IMG/VR virus record: IMGVR_UViG_3300033405_000002
Location: 115,595 to 179,594 of that record
Source of the DNA: a virus
Taxonomy: Duplodnaviria > Heunggongvirae > Uroviricota > Caudoviricetes
Reading direction: 5' to 3' (one strand)
Length of the DNA: 64,000 nucleotides
In this document: positions 9,179 through 13,076 of the stretch, piece after piece
How positions within the stretch are numbered: position 1 is the stretch's first letter
Layout: each line of letters begins with the position of its first letter
Made by a program: the position numbers and the translations under genes
Notes under the pieces: generated by a model
Told to the model about the DNA's origin: nothing
The model's input: only the letters and a program-made list of their open reading frames with translations
Databases searched by the model: none

Positions 9179-9252
9179 TGGTAGCCCTAAGGGGAATCGA
9201 ACCCCTGTTATCGGATTGAGAGTCCGGCTTCCTGCCACTAGAAGATAGGGCC
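9179..9252 (-). tRNA. tRNA-Glu(CTC)
   Basis: Cloverleaf, anticodon arm CCGGA-CT-CTC-AA-TCCGA, GGTTCGATT T-loop, encoded CCA. Confidence 0.9.
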
Positions 9253-9642
9253 ATGTTTCAAAGCGTATAGTTCACGACGGCGTGCAAGCCATTTCTCACG
9301 TTTGACCGGATCACTATACATCTTTGCAAATTTTTTCCGTGCTTGCTCGCGGCGATCTATTATTCTTGGTCTCGATCTTCTCGCACCGGAGTTGCATTTT
9401 TTGTGAGAAGCCGCGAGATTCTCCAAATCCCAATACAACGCGGTGCTAACATGCAGCCATGCTTGCTTATGATCCACCGAAAACGTAGCAAGCGTTTCAA
9501 TTCTCTTGCCACAGCGATAACAAGCGTCTTTCCCGGCGTCTTGAAGCAGCTTAAAAAGCCACATTCGAAGCAGCTTTACAGCGGCCGTCCGTCCGTGCAT
9601 ACCCAGTTGTGCGTCTTTCGTCTCTTTCGATCCCATGTACAC
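9238..9642 (-). CDS. HNH endonuclease
   Basis: CYRCG...FSVDHKQAW...DLENLAASHKKCN; stop codon lies inside tRNA-Glu. Confidence 0.8.
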   Translation of the reverse strand: MYMGSKETKDAQLGMHGRTAAVKLLRMWLFKLLQDAGKDACYRCGKRIETLATFSVDHKQAWLHVSTALYWDLENLAASHKKCNSGARRSRPRIIDRREQARKKFAKMYSDPVKREKWLARRRELYALKHGPIF

Positions 9643-9663
9643 TAATACTGGTTAGACGAAATT

Positions 9664-9727
9664 TGGTGGACCTAGAGGGAATTGAACCCCCGACGGGCAA
9701 CGTCCTAGGCCGCTAGACGAACGCGCC
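9664..9727 (-). pseudogene. Chimeric anticodon-less tRNA (Glu/Asp-type 5' half fused to Ala-type 3' half)
   Basis: GGCGCGTTCGTCTAGCGGCCTAGGACGTTGCCC joined to GTCGGGGGTTCAATTCCCTCTAGGTCCACCA; no anticodon loop, acceptor strands do not pair. Confidence 0.7.
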
Positions 9728-9732
9728 AAACT

Positions 9733-9808
9733 TGGTGGACCTTGTCGGGCTCGAACCGACCACCTCGTGCTTGCAAAGCACGCGCTCTCCCAGATGAGCT
9801 AAAGGCCC
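9733..9808 (-). tRNA. tRNA-Ala(TGC)
   Basis: CGTGC-TT-TGC-AA-GCACG; G3:U70; CCA. Confidence 0.95.
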
Positions 9809-9879
9809 GCGTGGTGCTTTCTGTGGCAGTTCGCGCACAGAAGATCAATCCATTCACACCGTACAATTGTTCCATCTAT
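9802..9879 (-). pseudogene. C-terminal remnant of an HNH endonuclease gene
   Basis: Frame reads IDGTIVRCEWIDLLCANCHRKHHAGL*, preceded by in-frame TAG and no start; LLCANCHR is the typical HNH terminal motif. Confidence 0.5.
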
Positions 9880-9881
9880 CT

Positions 9882-9890
9882 ATTATACCA
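9882..9890 (-). promoter_or_regulatory. Putative extended -10 promoter (TGGTATAAT) inside tRNA array
   Basis: Exact TGnTATAAT match in an intergenic spacer. Confidence 0.4.
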
Positions 9891-9895
9891 GAACT

Positions 9896-9970
9896 TGGAG
9901 CGGGAAACGGGATTCGAACCCGCGACAACTTGCTTGGGAAGCAAGGACTCTACCACTGAGCTATTCCCGC
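9896..9970 (-). tRNA. tRNA-Gly(CCC)
   Basis: CTTGC-TT-CCC-AA-GCAAG; CCA. Confidence 0.95.
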
Positions 9971-9976
9971 AAAACT

Positions 9977-10051
9977 TGGAGCGGACAGCGGGATTCGAAC
10001 CCGCGACCCCCGCCTTGGCAAGGCGATGTTCTACCGCTGAACTATGTCCGC
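9977..10051 (-). tRNA. tRNA-Gly(GCC)
   Basis: TCGCC-TT-GCC-AA-GGCGG; CCA. Confidence 0.95.
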
Positions 10052-10066
10052 GTTACTACTTAATAC

Positions 10067-10142
10067 TGGTGCGCCGTGCAGGATTCGAACCTGCGACTCC
10101 GACCGTGTGAAAGTCGTACTCTGGCCTCTGAGTTAACAGCGC
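10067..10142 (-). tRNA. tRNA-Val(CAC)
   Basis: CGACT-TT-CAC-AC-GGTCG; CCA. Confidence 0.92.
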
Positions 10143-10150
10143 AACAAACT

Positions 10151-10207
10151 TGGTGGACGCTATGGGATTTGGCACCCAATTAAGCCGCCTTACCACTACG
10201 GACGCCC
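10151..10207 (-). pseudogene. Degenerate tRNA-like element ending in CCA
   Basis: GGGCGT...GCGTCC-A-CCA with G3:U70, D-loop-like TAGTGGTAAGGCG, altered T arm TGGG-TGCCAAAT-CCCA, no anticodon arm. Confidence 0.55.
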
Positions 10208-10249
10208 ATCTTTACAACAAACTCAGCATAAGCGGCGATAGCTGATTCT

Positions 10250-10327
10250 TGGTAGCGTTGACGGGAGTCGAACCCGCATTGTCCTGATTGAAAGTCAGGT
10301 TTCCTAGACCATTTAGAAGACAACGCC
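10250..10327 (-). tRNA. tRNA-Glu(TTC)
   Basis: CCTGA-CT-TTC-AA-TCAGG; CCA. Confidence 0.95.
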
Positions 10328-10333
10328 ATAACT

Positions 10334-10409
10334 TGGTGCGCCGTGCTGGACTCGAACCAGCGATCTCTGCCTTGTCATGGCAGCGATTTGGCCGCTAATC
10401 TAACAGCGC
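10334..10409 (-). tRNA. tRNA-Val(GAC)
   Basis: CTGCC-AT-GAC-AA-GGCAG; CCA. Confidence 0.93.
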
Positions 10410-10419
10410 ACATCAAACT

Positions 10420-10495
10420 TGGTGGAGCCGAGGGGAGTTGAACCCCTGACCTTCGCAGTGCGAGTGCGACGTTCTCCCAACTGAACTACGACCCC
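10420..10495 (-). tRNA. tRNA-Ala(CGC)
   Basis: TCGCA-CT-CGC-AC-TGCGA; G3:U70; CCA. Confidence 0.95.
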
Positions 10496-10496
10496 A

Positions 10497-10557
10497 TACA
10501 GGGCGGACATCGAACCCGCCGCTGGTGTTGCGTGCTCCCGACATCTGAGCACCTGTA
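10497..10557 (-). ncRNA. Anticodon-less tRNA mimic (acceptor + D arm + T arm, no CCA)
   Basis: TACAG/CTGTA closing stem, GCTC-AGATGTCGG-GAGC D arm, GGCGGG-TTCGATG-TCCGCC T arm, 13 nt unpaired linker replacing the anticodon arm. Confidence 0.55.
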
Positions 10558-10561
10558 AACT

Positions 10562-10637
10562 TGGTGGACCTAGTGAGATTCGAACTCACGACCTTTTCCA
10601 TGCCATGGAAACGCGCTCCCAACTGCGCTATAGGCCC
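10562..10637 (-). tRNA. tRNA-Ala(GGC)
   Basis: TTTCC-AT-GGC-AT-GGAAA; G3:U70; CCA. Confidence 0.93.
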
Positions 10638-10650
10638 ATACTTATAAATC

Positions 10651-10727
10651 TGGTAGCGCACGTGAGATTCGAACTCACATTTCACACGCTGAGAACGTGG
10701 TTGCCTAAACCGTTAGCAGAGTGCGCC
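10651..10727 (-). tRNA. tRNA-Glu(CTC), second copy
   Basis: CCACG-TT-CTC-AG-CGTGT (27-43 mismatch); CCA. Confidence 0.85.
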
Positions 10728-10742
10728 ACTTACTTCTTAATC

Positions 10743-10819
10743 TGGAGCGGGCGGGGGGATTTGAACCCCTCATCCGAAGCTTGGAAGGCTCCTATTCTGC
10801 CAGATTGAACTACGCCCGC
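10743..10819 (-). tRNA. tRNA-Gly(TCC)
   Basis: GGAGC-CT-TCC-AA-GCTTC; CCA. Confidence 0.95.
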
Positions 10820-10828
10820 AAATTTTAG

Positions 10829-11121
10829 TATCAAGCCTGTAGCCGGGATTCTGTCGTGGACGACCATTCGTCTAGGCGCTGCATCGCTGCAACGCTCAAG
10901 CACGCTACCCGCTGATTCATAACGGATCGAGCCGATCCTGTCAGCCTATTTGCGCTTGCACCGCGTAGAGATTGCCCGTTTCACCCGCACTTAAGCGGCT
11001 CGTCTCTGTTGCTCTAATCGTCATCGGCTTTCACCGATGCGTGGGAGTTGCCCACTACGCTGCTCTACGGTGTCCCGAACTTCCTCCCCCGCTTGCGCGG
11101 CGGCGGTCGTCCAGCTTGATA
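10829..11121 (-). ncRNA. rnpB: RNase P RNA (bacterial A-type catalytic domain, P13/P14 absent)
   Basis: P1 TATCAAGCT/GGCTTGATA; P2 GGACGACC/GGTCGTCC; P4 GAGGAAGTTCGGGA with ACAGAATCCCGGCTA and bulged U; AGAGCAACAGAGA and GGGTGAAAC S-domain motifs; GCAAG...CAAATAGG, GGGTAG (L15), GCTTGAG, CTAGACGAATG conserved runs. Confidence 0.92.
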
Positions 11122-11125
11122 CATT

Positions 11126-11202
11126 TGGAGGACTGGGTGGGAGTCGAACCCACTCTCTACTCCTTTGCAGGGAGAGCCTTCCTACCGTTCAGGTTCCAAT
11201 CC
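11126..11202 (-). tRNA. tRNA-Cys(GCA)
   Basis: TCTCC-CT-GCA-AA-GGAGT; U73; CCA. Confidence 0.85.
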
Positions 11203-11289
11203 AAACTCAACGCACGACCCCTGTTACAAAAAAGCGCGGGATCGGCGAATGCTGTTGTGCGCTACGCTCATACACACAACAATCTATCT

Positions 11290-11364
11290 TGGCGGTGACG
11301 ACGAGATTTGAACTCGCATCCTGCCCCGTGACAGGGGGAAACTCTACCATTAAGCTACGTCACC
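11290..11364 (-). tRNA. tRNA-Asp(GTC)
   Basis: TCCCC-CT-GTC-AC-GGGGC; G73; CCA. Confidence 0.9.
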
Positions 11365-11370
11365 AAAACT

Positions 11371-11448
11371 TGGCGGGGTGTACGGGACTTGAACCCGTGA
11401 TCTCTTCCGTGACAGGGAAGCGTGAACTCCAGACTTCACCAACACCCC
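11371..11448 (-). tRNA. tRNA-Asp(GTC), second copy
   Basis: CTTCC-CT-GTC-AC-GGAAG; G73; CCA. Confidence 0.93.
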
Positions 11449-11451
11449 AAC

Positions 11452-11526
11452 TGGAAGCCGGGACGGGGATCGAACCCGCGAATAATGGTTTTGCAGACCA
11501 TCGCCTTACCACTTGGCTACCCGGCT
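11452..11526 (-). tRNA. tRNA-Cys(GCA), second copy
   Basis: ATGGT-CT-GCA-AA-ACCAT; U73; CCA. Confidence 0.92.
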
Positions 11527-11536
11527 TACATCGAAA

Positions 11537-11640
11537 TTTAGCCCGGATGCTCAAAGAGCCTGACGCTCTAACACCGTGCCCTATGGCTCGTAAGCCCTAT
11601 GGCATCGGCTGCTCTCGCCGTCCGGGACGGCACACCTAAA
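11537..11640 (-). ncRNA. Unassigned structured RNA candidate within tRNA array
   Basis: Closing stems TTTAG/CTAAA and CCCGGA/TCCGGG enclose three hairpins, one built from a 10 nt direct repeat (GCCCTATGGC at 11578 and 11594). Confidence 0.4.
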
Positions 11641-11641
11641 C

Positions 11642-11716
11642 TGGTGGACACAGGGAGATTCGAACTCCATCCTTCTCATTGCAAGTGAGACGCATTCCCA
11701 ATTATGCTACTGGCCC
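11642..11716 (-). tRNA. tRNA-Ala(TGC), atypical second copy
   Basis: TCTCA-CT-TGC-AA-TGAGA; acceptor stem needs a bulge or has two mismatches; CCA. Confidence 0.75.
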
Positions 11717-11718
11717 AT

Positions 11719-11797
11719 TGGTAGTCTGGGTGGGACTCGAACCCACGGTAATCGCTGTTTGTAAGACAGCGGGCATCGCCACTCGCTCCACCAGACC
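11719..11797 (-). tRNA. tRNA-Val(TAC)
   Basis: GCTGT-CT-TAC-AA-ACAGC; GGTCTGG/CCAGACT acceptor; CCA. Confidence 0.88.
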
Positions 11798-11808
11798 ACA
11801 TTTACCGC

Positions 11809-11841
11809 AAAAACAAAAAGGACGCTCGATTTGAGCGTCCT
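11809..11841 (-). terminator. Intrinsic terminator (attenuator hairpin) immediately upstream of first tRNA
   Basis: AGGACGCTC-AAATC-GAGCGTCCT 9 bp stem followed by TTTTGTTTTT. Confidence 0.85.
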
Positions 11842-11888
11842 CGTGATTCGAACTTGTCAGGTCTTAGCCGACTCGAATCTCCGAGGAC
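11837..11888 (-). promoter_or_regulatory. Antiterminator helix overlapping the terminator 5' arm
   Basis: GTCCTCG-GA-GATTCGA (11888-11873) pairs with TCGAATC-A-CGAGGAC (11851-11837), 14 bp. Confidence 0.75.
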
Positions 11889-11989
11889 ATGGTATCTCCT
11901 GCCGCCGCGCAAGCGGCGACCGTACCACGTTCACACACGACTGCTACAGTCGCGGCGGAAACATTCGTGTTGGCGTAAGTGTTGTTCAT
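11864..11989 (-). CDS. Putative attenuator leader peptide (41 aa) MNNTYANTNVSAATVAVVCERGTVAACAAAGDTMSSEIRVG
   Basis: Hand-translated ATG 11989 to TAA 11864; 23/41 codons are Ala/Val/Gly/Glu/Asp/Cys; stop lies 22 nt before the terminator. Confidence 0.75.
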   Translation of the reverse strand: MNNTYANTNVSAATVAVVCERGTVAACAAAGDTMSSEIRVG

Positions 11990-12020
11990 GACTCTAACCT
12001 GATACTCGATATTCGCAAAA

Positions 12021-12047
12021 CCTGTGCGAATTGTCAATCAAAAAGTT
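12021..12047 (-). promoter_or_regulatory. Putative promoter -35 (TTGACA) followed by a 7-7-7 inverted repeat operator
   Basis: TTGACA at 12047-12042; ATTCGCA-N7-TGCGAAT at 12021-12041; no consensus -10 at 17 bp. Confidence 0.4.
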
Positions 12048-12245
12048 GTTCCCCCTATCTAACGCGACCTTTCAGCTTCGGTGAATCTCTGCTGAAGGCG
12101 GGGGCTGCGCGACATGCTCGGGGCTATTCACACCCTTTCGTCCCTTGGGCAGATTCTCCTCTTAGGAACAAGCAGCGGTCTATCGCAGGCTTAAATCAAT
12201 CTCTCATGTATGATACTGGAAGTCAAGCAATTTCGCAAAAGTTAT

Positions 12246-12267
12246 GGCCCCGGTGATTGCCGGGGCC
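12246..12267 (-). terminator. Probable terminator after sigma factor gene
   Basis: GGCCCCGG-CAATCA-CCGGGGCC followed by ATAACTTTT. Confidence 0.55.
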
Positions 12268-12312
12268 GTTAGCCGTGGTTTCCGAGGCCGTAGCCTAGTG
12301 CGGATTTCTCAC

Positions 12313-13026
12313 CTAATCCGCTGTCACATCCAGTATACGGGACTGCTGGCAGATTTGGCTAGGAATTCTGGAATTTTTTTCCACCTGCTCTATCAACAAC
12401 TTACGCGCTCTCAGGAGCCGGGACTTTACTGCGGACAGCCGGACCTTCTTCCCGGCACTCAGGTTGAGCACTTGCCGAATATCTTCCACGGTCAAGCCTT
12501 CCCAGAAGCGAAGGTGCAGGATGTCGCGGTACGGCGCTGGCATCCGTTTGATCGCCATGTCAAGGACTTGACGATCCGCTAGTCCTTCCAGATCGAGGTC
12601 GCGGAGAGACAACCGTTCAACCAGCTTCGCCGGGACTTTATTGTGTTCAGGGCCAGTGCCATGCGTCCCTGTGGAAACCATCAGGCTGTCGAGTGAAACT
12701 TCGTTGGCGCGGCGCAGCGCGTTGCCGTGGCGTTTCTGCATCAGAGCTTCGTTGATTGCGATTCGCGTTACCCACGTGCTGAACTTGGACTTCTCATCGA
12801 AAGACGGCAGCTTTTCCCAAACCTTCGTCAGAGCGAGATTCGCTGTCCACTGTGACAGGTCTTCACATTGCAGAAATCGGTTGATGACGGCACAGACTCG
12901 CGCATAGTGGTGGTTGTAGAGCGCCGTGAACGCGGCTTCACTACCAGCCTTCGCTTGGCGCACCAGTTGAAGTTCTTCCGGGGAATCGTAAATTTTCTTC
13001 GCTCTTGCTGCGGCAACTGATGCCAT
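12313..13026 (-). CDS. ECF-type (sigma-70 family group 4) RNA polymerase sigma factor
   Basis: Region 2 AKAGSEAAFTALY...KVWEKLPSFDEKSKFSTWVTRIAINEAL; region 4 ILHLRFWEGLTVEDI...VKSRLLRARK; AGGAG upstream of ATG 13026. Confidence 0.9.
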   Translation of the reverse strand: MASVAAARAKKIYDSPEELQLVRQAKAGSEAAFTALYNHHYARVCAVINRFLQCEDLSQWTANLALTKVWEKLPSFDEKSKFSTWVTRIAINEALMQKRHGNALRRANEVSLDSLMVSTGTHGTGPEHNKVPAKLVERLSLRDLDLEGLADRQVLDMAIKRMPAPYRDILHLRFWEGLTVEDIRQVLNLSAGKKVRLSAVKSRLLRARKLLIEQVEKNSRIPSQICQQSRILDVTAD

Positions 13027-13076
13027 TCGGTCGTCTCCTATCAAGAACCAGTATACAAAGCCAGATGAATTTTTGG

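What the first reader, a model, noticed from the sequence alone, without database searches (positions are those of the whole stretch)
9179..11797. tRNA array is exactly the complete GNN codon quadrant plus Cys
Seen in sequence: 17 tRNAs, namely Val GAC/TAC/CAC, Ala GGC/TGCx2/CGC, Asp GTCx2, Glu TTC/CTCx2, Gly GCC/TCC/CCC and Cys GCAx2. These are all 12 standard bacterial anticodons ending in C36, with no ANN or CNN decoders and no UNN decoder except Cys. The virion proteins are very rich in Thr/Ser/Asn, which are not covered, so simple codon-demand matching does not explain it. Inference: (a) the genome partitions tRNAs by codon box into separately sensed operons, (b) these tRNAs depend least on host position-37 hypermodification (t6A, ms2i6A, m1G), or (c) the set counters a particular host tRNase.
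Basis: partly seen in the sequence, partly recalled or inferred. Interest (0 to 1): 0.8.

Follow-up and report, generated by a model that had tools for sequence, protein, structure and literature searches.

The report
Self-sensing GNN-codon phage tRNA operon
A 332-kb peat-soil phage keeps all its tRNAs for codons starting with G, plus cysteine, and its own RNase P ribozyme gene in one operon; a tiny leader gene written in those same codons sits in front, so the phage probably makes this tRNA set only when ribosomes decode those codons slowly.

Summary
There are 17 tRNA genes on the minus strand at 9179-11797: all 12 non-A34 GNN-decoding anticodons plus two Cys-GCA, and nothing else.

The set is conserved. 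In 13 syntenic loci (about 10 lineages, neighbouring sigma factor only 46-58% identical), all 194 tRNA calls are GNN decoders or Cys, despite reshuffling and ORF insertions.

Reading (a) is supported. The genome holds five tRNA clusters sorted by amino acid:
- Phe/Met/Pro
- Leu/Tyr
- GNN+Cys
- Gln/Lys/suppressor
- Ile/Thr/Gln

Four of them are preceded by a promoter, a short leader ORF enriched only in that array's own amino acids, and an antiterminator/terminator pair. The GNN leader (11989-11864) uses 16 of the 18 GNN+Cys codons and is conserved in all lineages.

Reading (b) is not supported, because Cys breaks it. Reading (c) is untestable here but fits as the trigger.

Why the G row in particular is grouped remains unexplained. 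Nothing is experimentally shown. This scan has already noted the same design on other DNA, on this genome and on this window. I found no publication of it.

The parts
12009..12037 (-). Promoter-like site of the operon: TTGACA, 17-nt spacer, TGn-GAATAT (extended -10)
   Evidence: Read from the sequence. The same layout stands upstream of the leader in L002 and L003 and in L086, L088 and L089. The consensus scan did not flag it, because its -10 hexamer matches only 3 of 6. Function inferred.
11864..11989 (-). Leader ORF: 41 codons plus stop (MNNTYANTNVSAATVAVVCERGTVAACAAAGDTMSSEIRVG). 23 of 40 codons after the start are GNN or Cys, and 16 of the 18 possible GNN+Cys codons are used.
   Evidence: The ORF is kept (39-46 codons, all length changes in frame) in 10 lineages, always with at least one Cys codon. 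Translation not shown.
11889..11928 (-). GC-rich hairpin built from leader codons about 21-34 (Val/Ala/Gly/Asp codons); candidate pause hairpin
   Evidence: ViennaRNA folds. Nucleotides nearly invariant across lineages (alignment A2). Role inferred.
11837..11888 (-). Antiterminator hairpin. Its 5' strand is the last 8 leader codons, the stop codon lies in the apical part, and its 3' strand overlaps the terminator's 5' arm.
   Evidence: Energy -25.8 kcal/mol, z = -5.0. The equivalent hairpin is present in all 9 lineages folded (-24 to -31 kcal/mol). It persists with the ribosome A site at codons up to 29 and is melted from codon 31-33 on. RNAalifold recovers a 9-pair base helix with a compensatory C-G to U-A change in 3 sequences.
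11808..11842 (-). Intrinsic terminator (10-bp stem, 5-nt loop, T-run), about 10 nt before the first tRNA
   Evidence: Terminators of 8-11 bp with different stem sequences stand at the same place in all 9 lineages folded.
11719..11797 (-). tRNA-Val (TAC), first gene of the array in every lineage
11646..11716 (-). tRNA-Ala (TGC), atypical 71-nt copy with a bulged acceptor stem but G3:U70; conserved as the second or third gene
   Evidence: Low covariance-model scores here and in relatives (36-51 bits).
11452..11526 (-). tRNA-Cys (GCA), copy 1, U73
11290..11448 (-). Two diverged tRNA-Asp (GTC) genes (11371-11448 and 11290-11364), both with G73
11129..11202 (-). tRNA-Cys (GCA), copy 2, ending 6 nt before the RNase P RNA
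   Evidence: Rfam 48 bits. Missed by ARAGORN here and in L084. Holds the same position in nearly all lineages.
10824..11122 (-). Bacterial type-A RNase P RNA, 299 nt, without P13/P14 and with a short P12; flanked directly by tRNA-Cys and tRNA-Gly
   Evidence: RF00010, 189 bits, E = 1e-59. Present between Cys and Gly-TCC in all 9 relative loci scanned with Rfam (178-269 bits). No RnpA protein gene in the genome.
10250..10819 (-). tRNAs Gly-TCC, Glu-CTC, Ala-GGC, Ala-CGC, Val-GAC, Glu-TTC
10151..10207 (-). tRNA-like element with acceptor, D and T arms and CCA but no anticodon arm
   Evidence: Read from the sequence and folded. 78% identical copy in L084. Function unknown.
9733..10142 (-). tRNAs Val-CAC, Gly-GCC, Gly-CCC, Ala-TGC (copy 2)
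9664..9727 (-). Chimeric tRNA remnant: 5' half like the terminal Glu-CTC gene, 3' half like an Ala tRNA
   Evidence: blastn of the two halves against relatives' tRNAs. It lies beside the HNH ORF, so it is read as an insertion scar (inference).
9238..9642 (-). HNH endonuclease ORF inserted between Ala-TGC and the last tRNA
   Evidence: Pfam PF01844, E = 2e-5. In L003 the two tRNAs are 7 nt apart.
9179..9252 (-). tRNA-Glu (CTC), last gene of the array

Best explanation
The GNN+Cys array is one regulon of a codon-sorted, feedback-controlled tRNA supply system in a clade of huge peat and soil phages.

How it would work:
1. A sigma-70-like promoter (12037-12009) starts a transcript whose first 126 nt encode a 41-codon leader. 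The leader is written mostly in GNN and Cys codons and samples 16 of the 18 such codons.
2. The last eight leader codons form the 5' strand of an antiterminator hairpin. Its 3' strand overlaps the 5' arm of a strong intrinsic terminator that stands about 10 nt before the first tRNA.
3. If the ribosome reads the leader quickly to its end, it melts the antiterminator. The terminator then forms and transcription stops.
4. If the ribosome stalls on any GNN or Cys codon because the matching charged tRNA is scarce, the antiterminator persists. The same happens if translation fails altogether. RNA polymerase then reads through into the 17 tRNA genes and the embedded RNase P RNA.
5. The RNase P RNA probably works with the host RnpA protein, since the phage has no rnpA gene. 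It would help cut the precursor, including its own 3' end at the start of tRNA-Gly.

On this view, array membership is set by which codons the leader senses. That explains why no other tRNA has entered the array in any lineage and why Cys, whose codon is kept in every leader, belongs to it.

Shown: genes, conserved set, leader ORF, codon match, alternative RNA structures. Inferred: translation of the leader, stalling, readthrough, processing. Not explained: why the G row was pooled.
For: Array content
- 17 tRNAs with the stated anticodons.
- All 194 tRNA calls at the syntenic locus in 13 loci are GNN decoders or Cys. The neighbouring sigma factor is only 46-58% identical. Gene order changes, and HNH, PD-(D/E)XK, DUF4031, HTH and mini-GlyRS-like ORFs are inserted.

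Genome-wide pattern
- Five clusters sorted by amino acid.
- Each of four leaders is enriched only in its own array's amino acids. In the sensing window p = 4e-4, 4e-4, 2e-3 and 3e-8, with no off-diagonal enrichment. The true pairing of leaders to arrays scores best of the 24 possible permutations.
- Arrays A, B and E share a near-identical promoter, and B and E share a near-identical terminator, yet their leaders differ.

Leader C
- In 10 lineages, 55-63% of codons are GNN or Cys (each p <= 0.013).
- 13-16 of the 18 target codons are used, against about 9.5-10 expected.
- At least one Cys codon is always present.
- The ORF is kept in frame despite indels.

RNA switch
- Co-transcriptional folds show an antiterminator in all four leaders. 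It survives only while the ribosome sits on the cognate-codon run.
- It is present in 9 lineages (-24 to -31 kcal/mol, z = -2.9 to -6.3).
- It has a compensatory change.
- Terminators covary.

Other
- No consensus promoter between terminator and array or inside the array.
- A relative (G001) keeps the Leu/Tyr and Pro/Met/Phe arrays with matching leaders.
Against: - There are no expression data of any kind.
- The Shine-Dalgarno signal of the leader is weak (AGG/GAG).
- Enrichment of leader C is only 1.6-1.7 fold, because GNN+Cys amino acids already make up 36% of phage proteins.
- The most conserved leader block is invariant at the nucleotide level. It could be conserved as RNA or as a peptide rather than as sensing codons.
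- In full-length minimum-energy folds the terminator wins under most ribosome positions. The switch appears only in co-transcriptional (truncated) folds.
- The antiterminator also forms with no ribosome. The logic therefore differs from trp, where no translation gives termination.
- Internal promoters for the phage's own sigma factor cannot be excluded. The consensus scan even missed the leader promoter.
- All relatives share ancestry, so conservation counts as one origin of the GNN grouping.
Confidence: 0.68

Rival explanations
1. The sorting is a frozen accident. The array was assembled once in an ancestor and simply inherited, and the upstream ORF and terminator form an unrelated small gene or structured RNA. 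The GNN pattern would then have no regulatory meaning.
For: All loci compared share synteny and therefore ancestry. The chance probability of the grouping is small but post hoc (0.002-0.006). The conserved leader block is invariant at the nucleotide level.
Against: Four independent leaders each match only their own array. Arrays A, B and E share promoter or terminator modules but have diverged leader codons. The arrays are reshuffled and invaded by ORFs, yet never by a foreign tRNA in 194 genes. The terminator leaves no room for a separate promoter before the first tRNA.
Confidence: 0.12
2. This is plain codon-demand supplementation. The phage carries tRNAs for its most used codons, and GNN decoders sit together only because they are the biggest demand class. 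There is no sensing.
For: GNN codons are 34.8% of phage codons, and the array's six amino acids are 36.1%. These amino acids are slightly more used in the co-oriented early/replication module (36.3%) than in the virion module (33.5%). Thr is higher in the virion module, next to the Thr array (10.3% against 6.5-6.8%).
Against: Demand does not explain physical sorting into separate units, the strong terminator in front of each unit, or the codon-matched leaders. Cys is the rarest amino acid (1.3%) yet has two conserved genes here. Host codon usage is unknown, so the classical phage-versus-host test could not be run.
Confidence: 0.1
3. The array is a counter-defence set. It replaces host tRNAs destroyed or inactivated by a host tRNA-targeting system, which is the reader's option (c). 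The leader may or may not be the trigger.
For: Four anticodons have two old, strongly diverged copies (Asp, Cys, Ala-TGC, Glu-CTC). The genome has 2-3 RNA-ligase-domain ORFs. The switch is ON by default when translation fails.
Against: To my knowledge, no known anticodon nuclease or tRNA toxin targets the whole G row plus Cys. The phage supplies near-complete sets for 15 amino acids in all, which suggests general rather than targeted replacement. RtcB is absent. Host and defence content are unknown.
Confidence: 0.07
4. The set was chosen because these tRNAs need no bulky position-37 modification, which is the reader's option (b). Alternatively, it arose by tandem duplication with change of the middle anticodon base within the G row.
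For: By textbook knowledge GNN decoders carry A37, m2A37 or m6A37 rather than t6A, ms2i6A or m1G. GNN anticodons differ only at position 35.
Against: Both Cys tRNAs have A36-A37-A38, the MiaA (i6A) determinant, and Cys is conserved in all lineages. tRNAs cluster by amino-acid family. Pairs of different amino acids are no more alike within an array (0.514 identity) than between arrays (0.497). Other arrays mix t6A-, m1G- and i6A-type decoders.
Confidence: 0.03

Closest known systems
Multivalent leader-peptide (ribosome-mediated) transcription attenuators of enterobacterial amino-acid operons (thrL for Thr/Ile; ilvGMEDA leader for Ile/Leu/Val; trpL, hisL, leuL)
   Same: A short translated leader rich in regulatory codons, an intrinsic terminator, and an overlapping antiterminator. 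The position of the ribosome decides which structure forms. One leader senses several amino acids.
   Different: The controlled genes are the tRNAs that read the sensed codons, plus an RNase P RNA, rather than biosynthetic enzymes. Six amino-acid families and up to 16 different codons are sampled. The antiterminator forms by default without translation. The system is viral.
E. coli pheST attenuator (pheM leader) and T-box riboswitches
   Same: Both regulate a translation-apparatus gene (an aminoacyl-tRNA synthetase) according to the charging state of the cognate tRNA. This is the nearest logic to supply of decoding capacity on demand (established knowledge).
   Different: Their targets are synthetase genes, not tRNA genes. 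The T-box binds uncharged tRNA directly without a ribosome. No T-box or other Rfam cis-regulator matched here.
Phage tRNA gene clusters (T4, T5, huge phages of Al-Shayeb et al. 2020, PMC7162821; Tunturi 5 of Acidobacteriota with 43 tRNAs, PMC11924767)
   Same: Many tRNA genes are clustered in a large phage genome, interleaved with homing endonuclease genes. The habitat and probable host phylum match Tunturi 5.
   Different: The clusters I know of (T4, T5; from memory) mix amino acids, and the Tunturi 5 paper gives tRNA counts only. None that I know of is described as sorted, gated by leaders or carrying RNase P RNA. No cultured phage in the collection is a relative.
Bacterial type-A RNase P RNA (Rfam RF00010; E. 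coli M1 RNA)
   Same: Full-length match to the model with the conserved core strings. It sits among its substrates.
   Different: It is encoded by a phage, is 299 nt, and lacks P13/P14 with a short P12. It is flanked directly by tRNAs. In 33 Acidobacteriota genomes rnpB is never next to tRNA-Cys. No rnpA is in the phage.

Membership tests
Ribosome-mediated (leader-peptide) transcription attenuator | Short ORF at the 5' end of the transcript, enriched in codons tied to the regulated function | tested here: met
   41-codon ORF. 23 of 40 codons are GNN or Cys (p = 0.005) and 16 of 18 target codons are used (p = 0.0008). The same holds in 10 lineages.
Ribosome-mediated (leader-peptide) transcription attenuator | Intrinsic terminator between the leader and the regulated genes | tested here: met
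   10-bp GC-rich stem plus T-run at 11842-11808. Present in all 9 lineages folded.
Ribosome-mediated (leader-peptide) transcription attenuator | Mutually exclusive antiterminator whose formation depends on ribosome position | tested here: met
   In silico only. The hairpin overlaps 5-7 nt of the terminator's 5' arm. It is intact with the A site at codons up to 29 and melted beyond codon 31-33.
Ribosome-mediated (leader-peptide) transcription attenuator | Leader is translated, and readthrough rises when cognate charged tRNA is limiting | not testable with these tools
   No RNA data set holds the locus. This needs reporter or 3'-end mapping experiments.
Ribosome-mediated (leader-peptide) transcription attenuator | No translation gives termination (the 1:2 pairing of the trp type) | tested here: not met
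   With no ribosome the antiterminator still forms in co-transcriptional folds of leaders B, C and E. The default is therefore readthrough, which makes this a variant of the class.
Phage tRNA gene cluster | Bona fide tRNA genes, clustered, in a viral genome | tested here: met
   ARAGORN and Rfam agree on 15 genes. Each adds one or two more (17 in all). Identity elements fit. The record is a 332-kb IMG/VR virus, CheckV 100% complete.
Bacterial RNase P RNA, type A (RF00010) | Score above the Rfam gathering threshold over the full model with the conserved core | tested here: met
   189 bits against 100, model positions 1-367. Relatives score 178-269 bits.
Bacterial RNase P RNA, type A (RF00010) | Complete specificity domain (P12, P13, P14) | tested here: not met
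   43 model positions (P13/P14) are absent and P12 is shortened. Catalytic activity not tested.

The most novel reading that the evidence does not exclude
Sorting by first codon base is itself functional. One multivalent leader reports the decoding speed of all G-starting codons, a third of all codons, plus Cys, and acts as the master switch. It drives both the largest tRNA set and the phage's own RNase P ribozyme. Together with the other leaders, this gives the phage an autonomous homeostat of decoding capacity, resolved by codon class, that fires when the host loses or destroys its tRNAs.
Probability: 0.35. Interest if true: 0.85.

Novelty: new variant of a known kind. Interest (0 to 1): 0.72.

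Why it matters
Phage tRNA genes are usually explained by codon-usage mismatch or, more recently, as replacements for tRNAs destroyed by host defences. How their expression is controlled is largely unknown.

Here the physical sorting of tRNA genes becomes intelligible. Each block is a feedback unit whose leader tests the very codons the block serves. This would extend classical attenuation from amino-acid synthesis to the supply of decoding capacity itself, and to a virus. It would also tie a virus-encoded RNase P ribozyme to that control.

The idea is directly testable with reporter fusions. If true, it offers natural sensors of codon-specific translation speed. It also offers a way to read, from sequence alone, which tRNAs a phage expects to lose during infection.

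Tried and rejected
Searches for relatives
- Exact-pattern and single-protein scans of IMG/VR for close relatives found nothing. An alignment-based scan was needed.
- No cultured relative turned up by DNA or by two proteins.
The genome-wide partition in relatives could therefore be checked only in one 170-kb IMG/VR record.

Expression
- No RNA holder is listed for the locus. Only two peat DNA runs hold it.

Folding
- Full-length minimum-energy folds did not reveal the switch. Only folds truncated before the terminator's 3' arm did.
- RNAalifold on the truncated alignment gave no consensus because of misalignment. The longer alignment gave the base helix.

Explanations rejected
- Duplication with anticodon shift as the origin of the G-row grouping: no extra similarity within the array.
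- Co-capture of tRNA-Cys with rnpB from the host: 0 of 33 Acidobacteriota genomes have a tRNA-Cys within 1.5 kb of rnpB.

Genes looked for in this genome
- RnpA and RtcB: no match.
- The mini-GlyRS-like gene of relatives: no match.

Literature
- Searches for attenuated tRNA operons or phage RNase P RNA found nothing relevant. The library lacks most subscription journals.

Not attempted
- A host codon-usage comparison and a survey of host anticodon nucleases, because the host is unknown.

Full report
**1. Observation**

ARAGORN tRNA genes on the minus strand between 9179 and 11797 and none elsewhere in the window. Rfam's tRNA model confirms them (15 at the gathering run, the 16th in the more permissive run) and adds one gene at 11129-11202. 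Its anticodon loop reads GCA.

- Val TAC, GAC, CAC
- Ala TGC twice, GGC, CGC
- Asp GTC twice
- Glu TTC, CTC twice
- Gly TCC, GCC, CCC
- Cys GCA twice

Acceptor-end identity elements agree with these calls for 14 of the 17. G3:U70 with A73 occurs in the four Ala, U73 in the two Cys and three Gly, G73 in the two Asp, and A73 in the three Val. The anticodon calls are therefore not artefacts.

- A 299-nt bacterial type-A RNase P RNA lies at 10824-11122 (189 bits, E = 1e-59). It lacks P13/P14 and has a short P12.
- An HNH endonuclease ORF lies at 9238-9642.
- There are two tRNA-like pieces.

**2. Context**

The window is part of a 332,300-bp IMG/VR virus record, 53.5% G+C, rated complete. Two peat metagenomes hold the locus. 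Few of its proteins match phage families, and no cultured phage is related.

Whole-genome ARAGORN finds about 50 tRNAs in five clusters:
- A: Phe, Met, Pro
- B: Leu, Tyr
- C: the present array
- D: Gln, Lys and three CUA suppressors
- E: Ile, Thr, Gln

Each amino-acid family sits in one cluster, except Gln. No tRNAs for Ser, Arg, Asn, His or Trp were detected. With the 15 families dealt at random into arrays of the observed sizes, that outcome has p = 0.002, or 0.006 for any five-member row or column.

**3. Relatives**

The ECF-type sigma factor gene just upstream (12313-13044) has a distinct clade of about 70 homologues at 46-58% identity. They lie on metagenome contigs of up to 458 kb. The next-best hits are bacterial sigma factors at about 30-35% identity, among them ones from Acidobacteria.

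I fetched 13 syntenic loci, representing about 10 lineages. The gene order helicase, ribonucleotide reductase, sigma factor, array, WGR protein, metallophosphatase is kept.

Every tRNA at this locus is a GNN decoder or Cys-GCA: 194 calls with no exception. This holds although:
- the internal order differs;
- copies are gained and lost;
- various ORFs have inserted, including a 248-residue ORF whose best, sub-threshold matches are glycine-tRNA ligase models, in two lineages.

The RNase P RNA is present in all 9 relative loci scanned with Rfam, between a Cys tRNA and Gly-TCC.

**4. What precedes the array**

Upstream of four of the five clusters I found the same layout: a promoter-like site, a short ORF, and a GC-rich hairpin with a T-run ending 10-60 nt before the first tRNA.

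The ORFs are enriched in the amino acids of their own array and in no other array's set. In the part upstream of the antiterminator, the results were:

| Leader | Own-set residues | p |
|---|---|---|
| A | 7 of 14 | 4e-4 |
| B | 7 of 14 | 4e-4 |
| C | 20 of 32 | 2e-3 |
| E | 13 of 16 | 3e-8 |

All off-diagonal tests are non-significant, and the true pairing of leaders to arrays scores best of the 24 possible permutations. Backgrounds come from 92,232 phage codons.

Arrays A, B and E share a near-identical promoter that occurs nowhere else in the genome. B and E also share a near-identical terminator. Their leaders nevertheless differ, which points to selection on leader codons.

Leader C (11989-11864) uses all four Val codons, all four Ala, both Cys, both Glu, three Gly and one Asp. 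That is 16 of 18 target codons, against 9.5 expected (p = 0.0008). In ten lineages it holds 55-63% target codons, 13-16 distinct target codons, and always at least one Cys codon. Its reading frame survives all length changes.

**5. The switch**

Full-length minimum-energy folds mostly keep the terminator. I then folded the transcript as it exists before the terminator's 3' arm is made. In that state each leader shows a stable hairpin that pairs the terminator's 5' arm with the distal leader codons (A -23, B -30, C -26, E -35 kcal/mol).

This hairpin stays intact while a modelled ribosome sits on the cognate-codon run. It is melted once the ribosome moves on to the ORF end.

For array C the hairpin is present in nine lineages (-24 to -31 kcal/mol, z = -2.9 to -6.3), with the stop codon in its apical part. 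RNAalifold recovers its 9-pair base helix with a compensatory C-G to U-A change in three sequences. The terminators themselves have different stem sequences but the same shape.

This is the geometry of classical attenuators, with one difference: without any ribosome the antiterminator still forms, so the default is readthrough.

**6. Explanation**

The most economical reading is that array membership equals the set of codons that the leader senses. The array and its RNase P RNA would be transcribed when those codons are read slowly. This accounts for several observations:
- the sorting;
- the exclusion of foreign tRNAs over long divergence;
- the presence of Cys, since its codon is conserved in the leader;
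- the strong terminator directly in front of the genes.

It does not explain why the G row was pooled. GNN codons are 34.8% of phage codons, so this is the bulk-demand class. The array's amino acids are slightly more used in the co-oriented early module, while Thr is enriched in the virion module next to the Thr array. These effects are modest.

Two historical explanations were tested and not supported:
- The array's tRNAs of different amino acids are no more alike than tRNAs from different arrays.
- rnpB is not next to tRNA-Cys in 33 Acidobacteriota genomes.

Option (c) cannot be tested, but it fits as a possible cause of stalling. Weak context for it comes from old, diverged duplicate tRNAs, tRNA look-alikes and RNA-ligase-domain genes.

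**7. Comparison with what is known**

The mechanism works like the multivalent leader-peptide attenuators of enterobacterial amino-acid operons. In logic it resembles the pheST attenuator and T-box elements (established knowledge). However, its targets are tRNA genes and a ribozyme gene, and it is viral.

Searches of the held literature found no attenuated tRNA operon and no phage RNase P RNA. The paper on the cultured acidobacterial jumbo phage Tunturi 5 reports 43 tRNAs and mentions neither feature (PMC11924767).

Earlier notes of this scan describe the following:
- the same GNN+Cys arrays in other genomes of the clade;
- the leader on this very window;
- the Ile/Thr/Gln leader in this genome;
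- many codon-matched leaders and phage RNase P RNAs elsewhere.

I reached the reading before opening those notes and re-tested it here. They are AI notes, not independent evidence.

**8. Verdict**

Interpretation (a) is supported, (b) is not, and (c) is open. This is a new variant of a known kind of control, apparently unpublished, and wholly computational so far.

Noticed in passing
window 12045-12215 (-): A structured stretch of about 170 nt (-45 kcal/mol) with its own promoter-like site (12238-12210). It ends in a GC stem plus U-run just before the leader promoter. It is conserved at 72-86% identity in five relatives, with compensatory changes in one hairpin, and has no Rfam match. Possibly a small RNA.
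   Followed up: partly
window 11527-11645 (-): The 119-nt spacer between Ala-TGC and Cys-GCA folds stably (-43 kcal/mol). It is partly conserved in L089, L002 and L001. It may be another small RNA or a processing element.
   Followed up: partly
window 10151-10207 (-): A tRNA-like element with acceptor stem, D and T arms and CCA but no anticodon arm. A 78% identical copy sits in the array of L084. It resembles the anticodon-less look-alikes noted earlier in another array of this genome.
   Followed up: partly
window 9238-9727 (-): An HNH endonuclease ORF has inserted between Ala-TGC and the final Glu-CTC. Beside it lies a chimera of a Glu-CTC 5' half and an Ala 3' half, apparently an insertion scar. 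The ORF's stop codon lies inside the Glu tRNA gene.
   Followed up: partly
window 11646-11716 (-) and orthologues in all relatives: The first Ala-TGC copy is atypical: 71 nt, a bulged acceptor stem, low covariance-model scores. Even so, it is conserved in position in every lineage.
   Followed up: no
L002 14934-15680 and L003 13773-14519: A 248-residue class II synthetase core, most similar to glycine-tRNA ligase (E = 4e-12, below the family cut-off), sits inside the GNN array of two relatives. It has no match in this genome.
   Followed up: partly
genome 191.5-192.5 kb (outside the window): Three tRNAs with a CUA anticodon (amber suppressors), one of them with a short intron, lie in a genome whose long ORFs are intact under the standard code. 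An intron-containing tRNA-like gene lies just upstream of that array.
   Followed up: no
genome 329706-330758, 52416-53837 and about 12164-12577 (outside the window): Two ORFs exceed the Pfam cut-off for the RNA_ligase domain (PF09414) and a third matches weakly. They are candidates for RNA repair.
   Followed up: no
window 12313-13044 (-): An ECF-type sigma factor gene always lies directly upstream of the GNN array in this clade. Its nearest cellular relatives include sigma factors of Acidobacteria and NC10, a hint about the host.
   Followed up: partly
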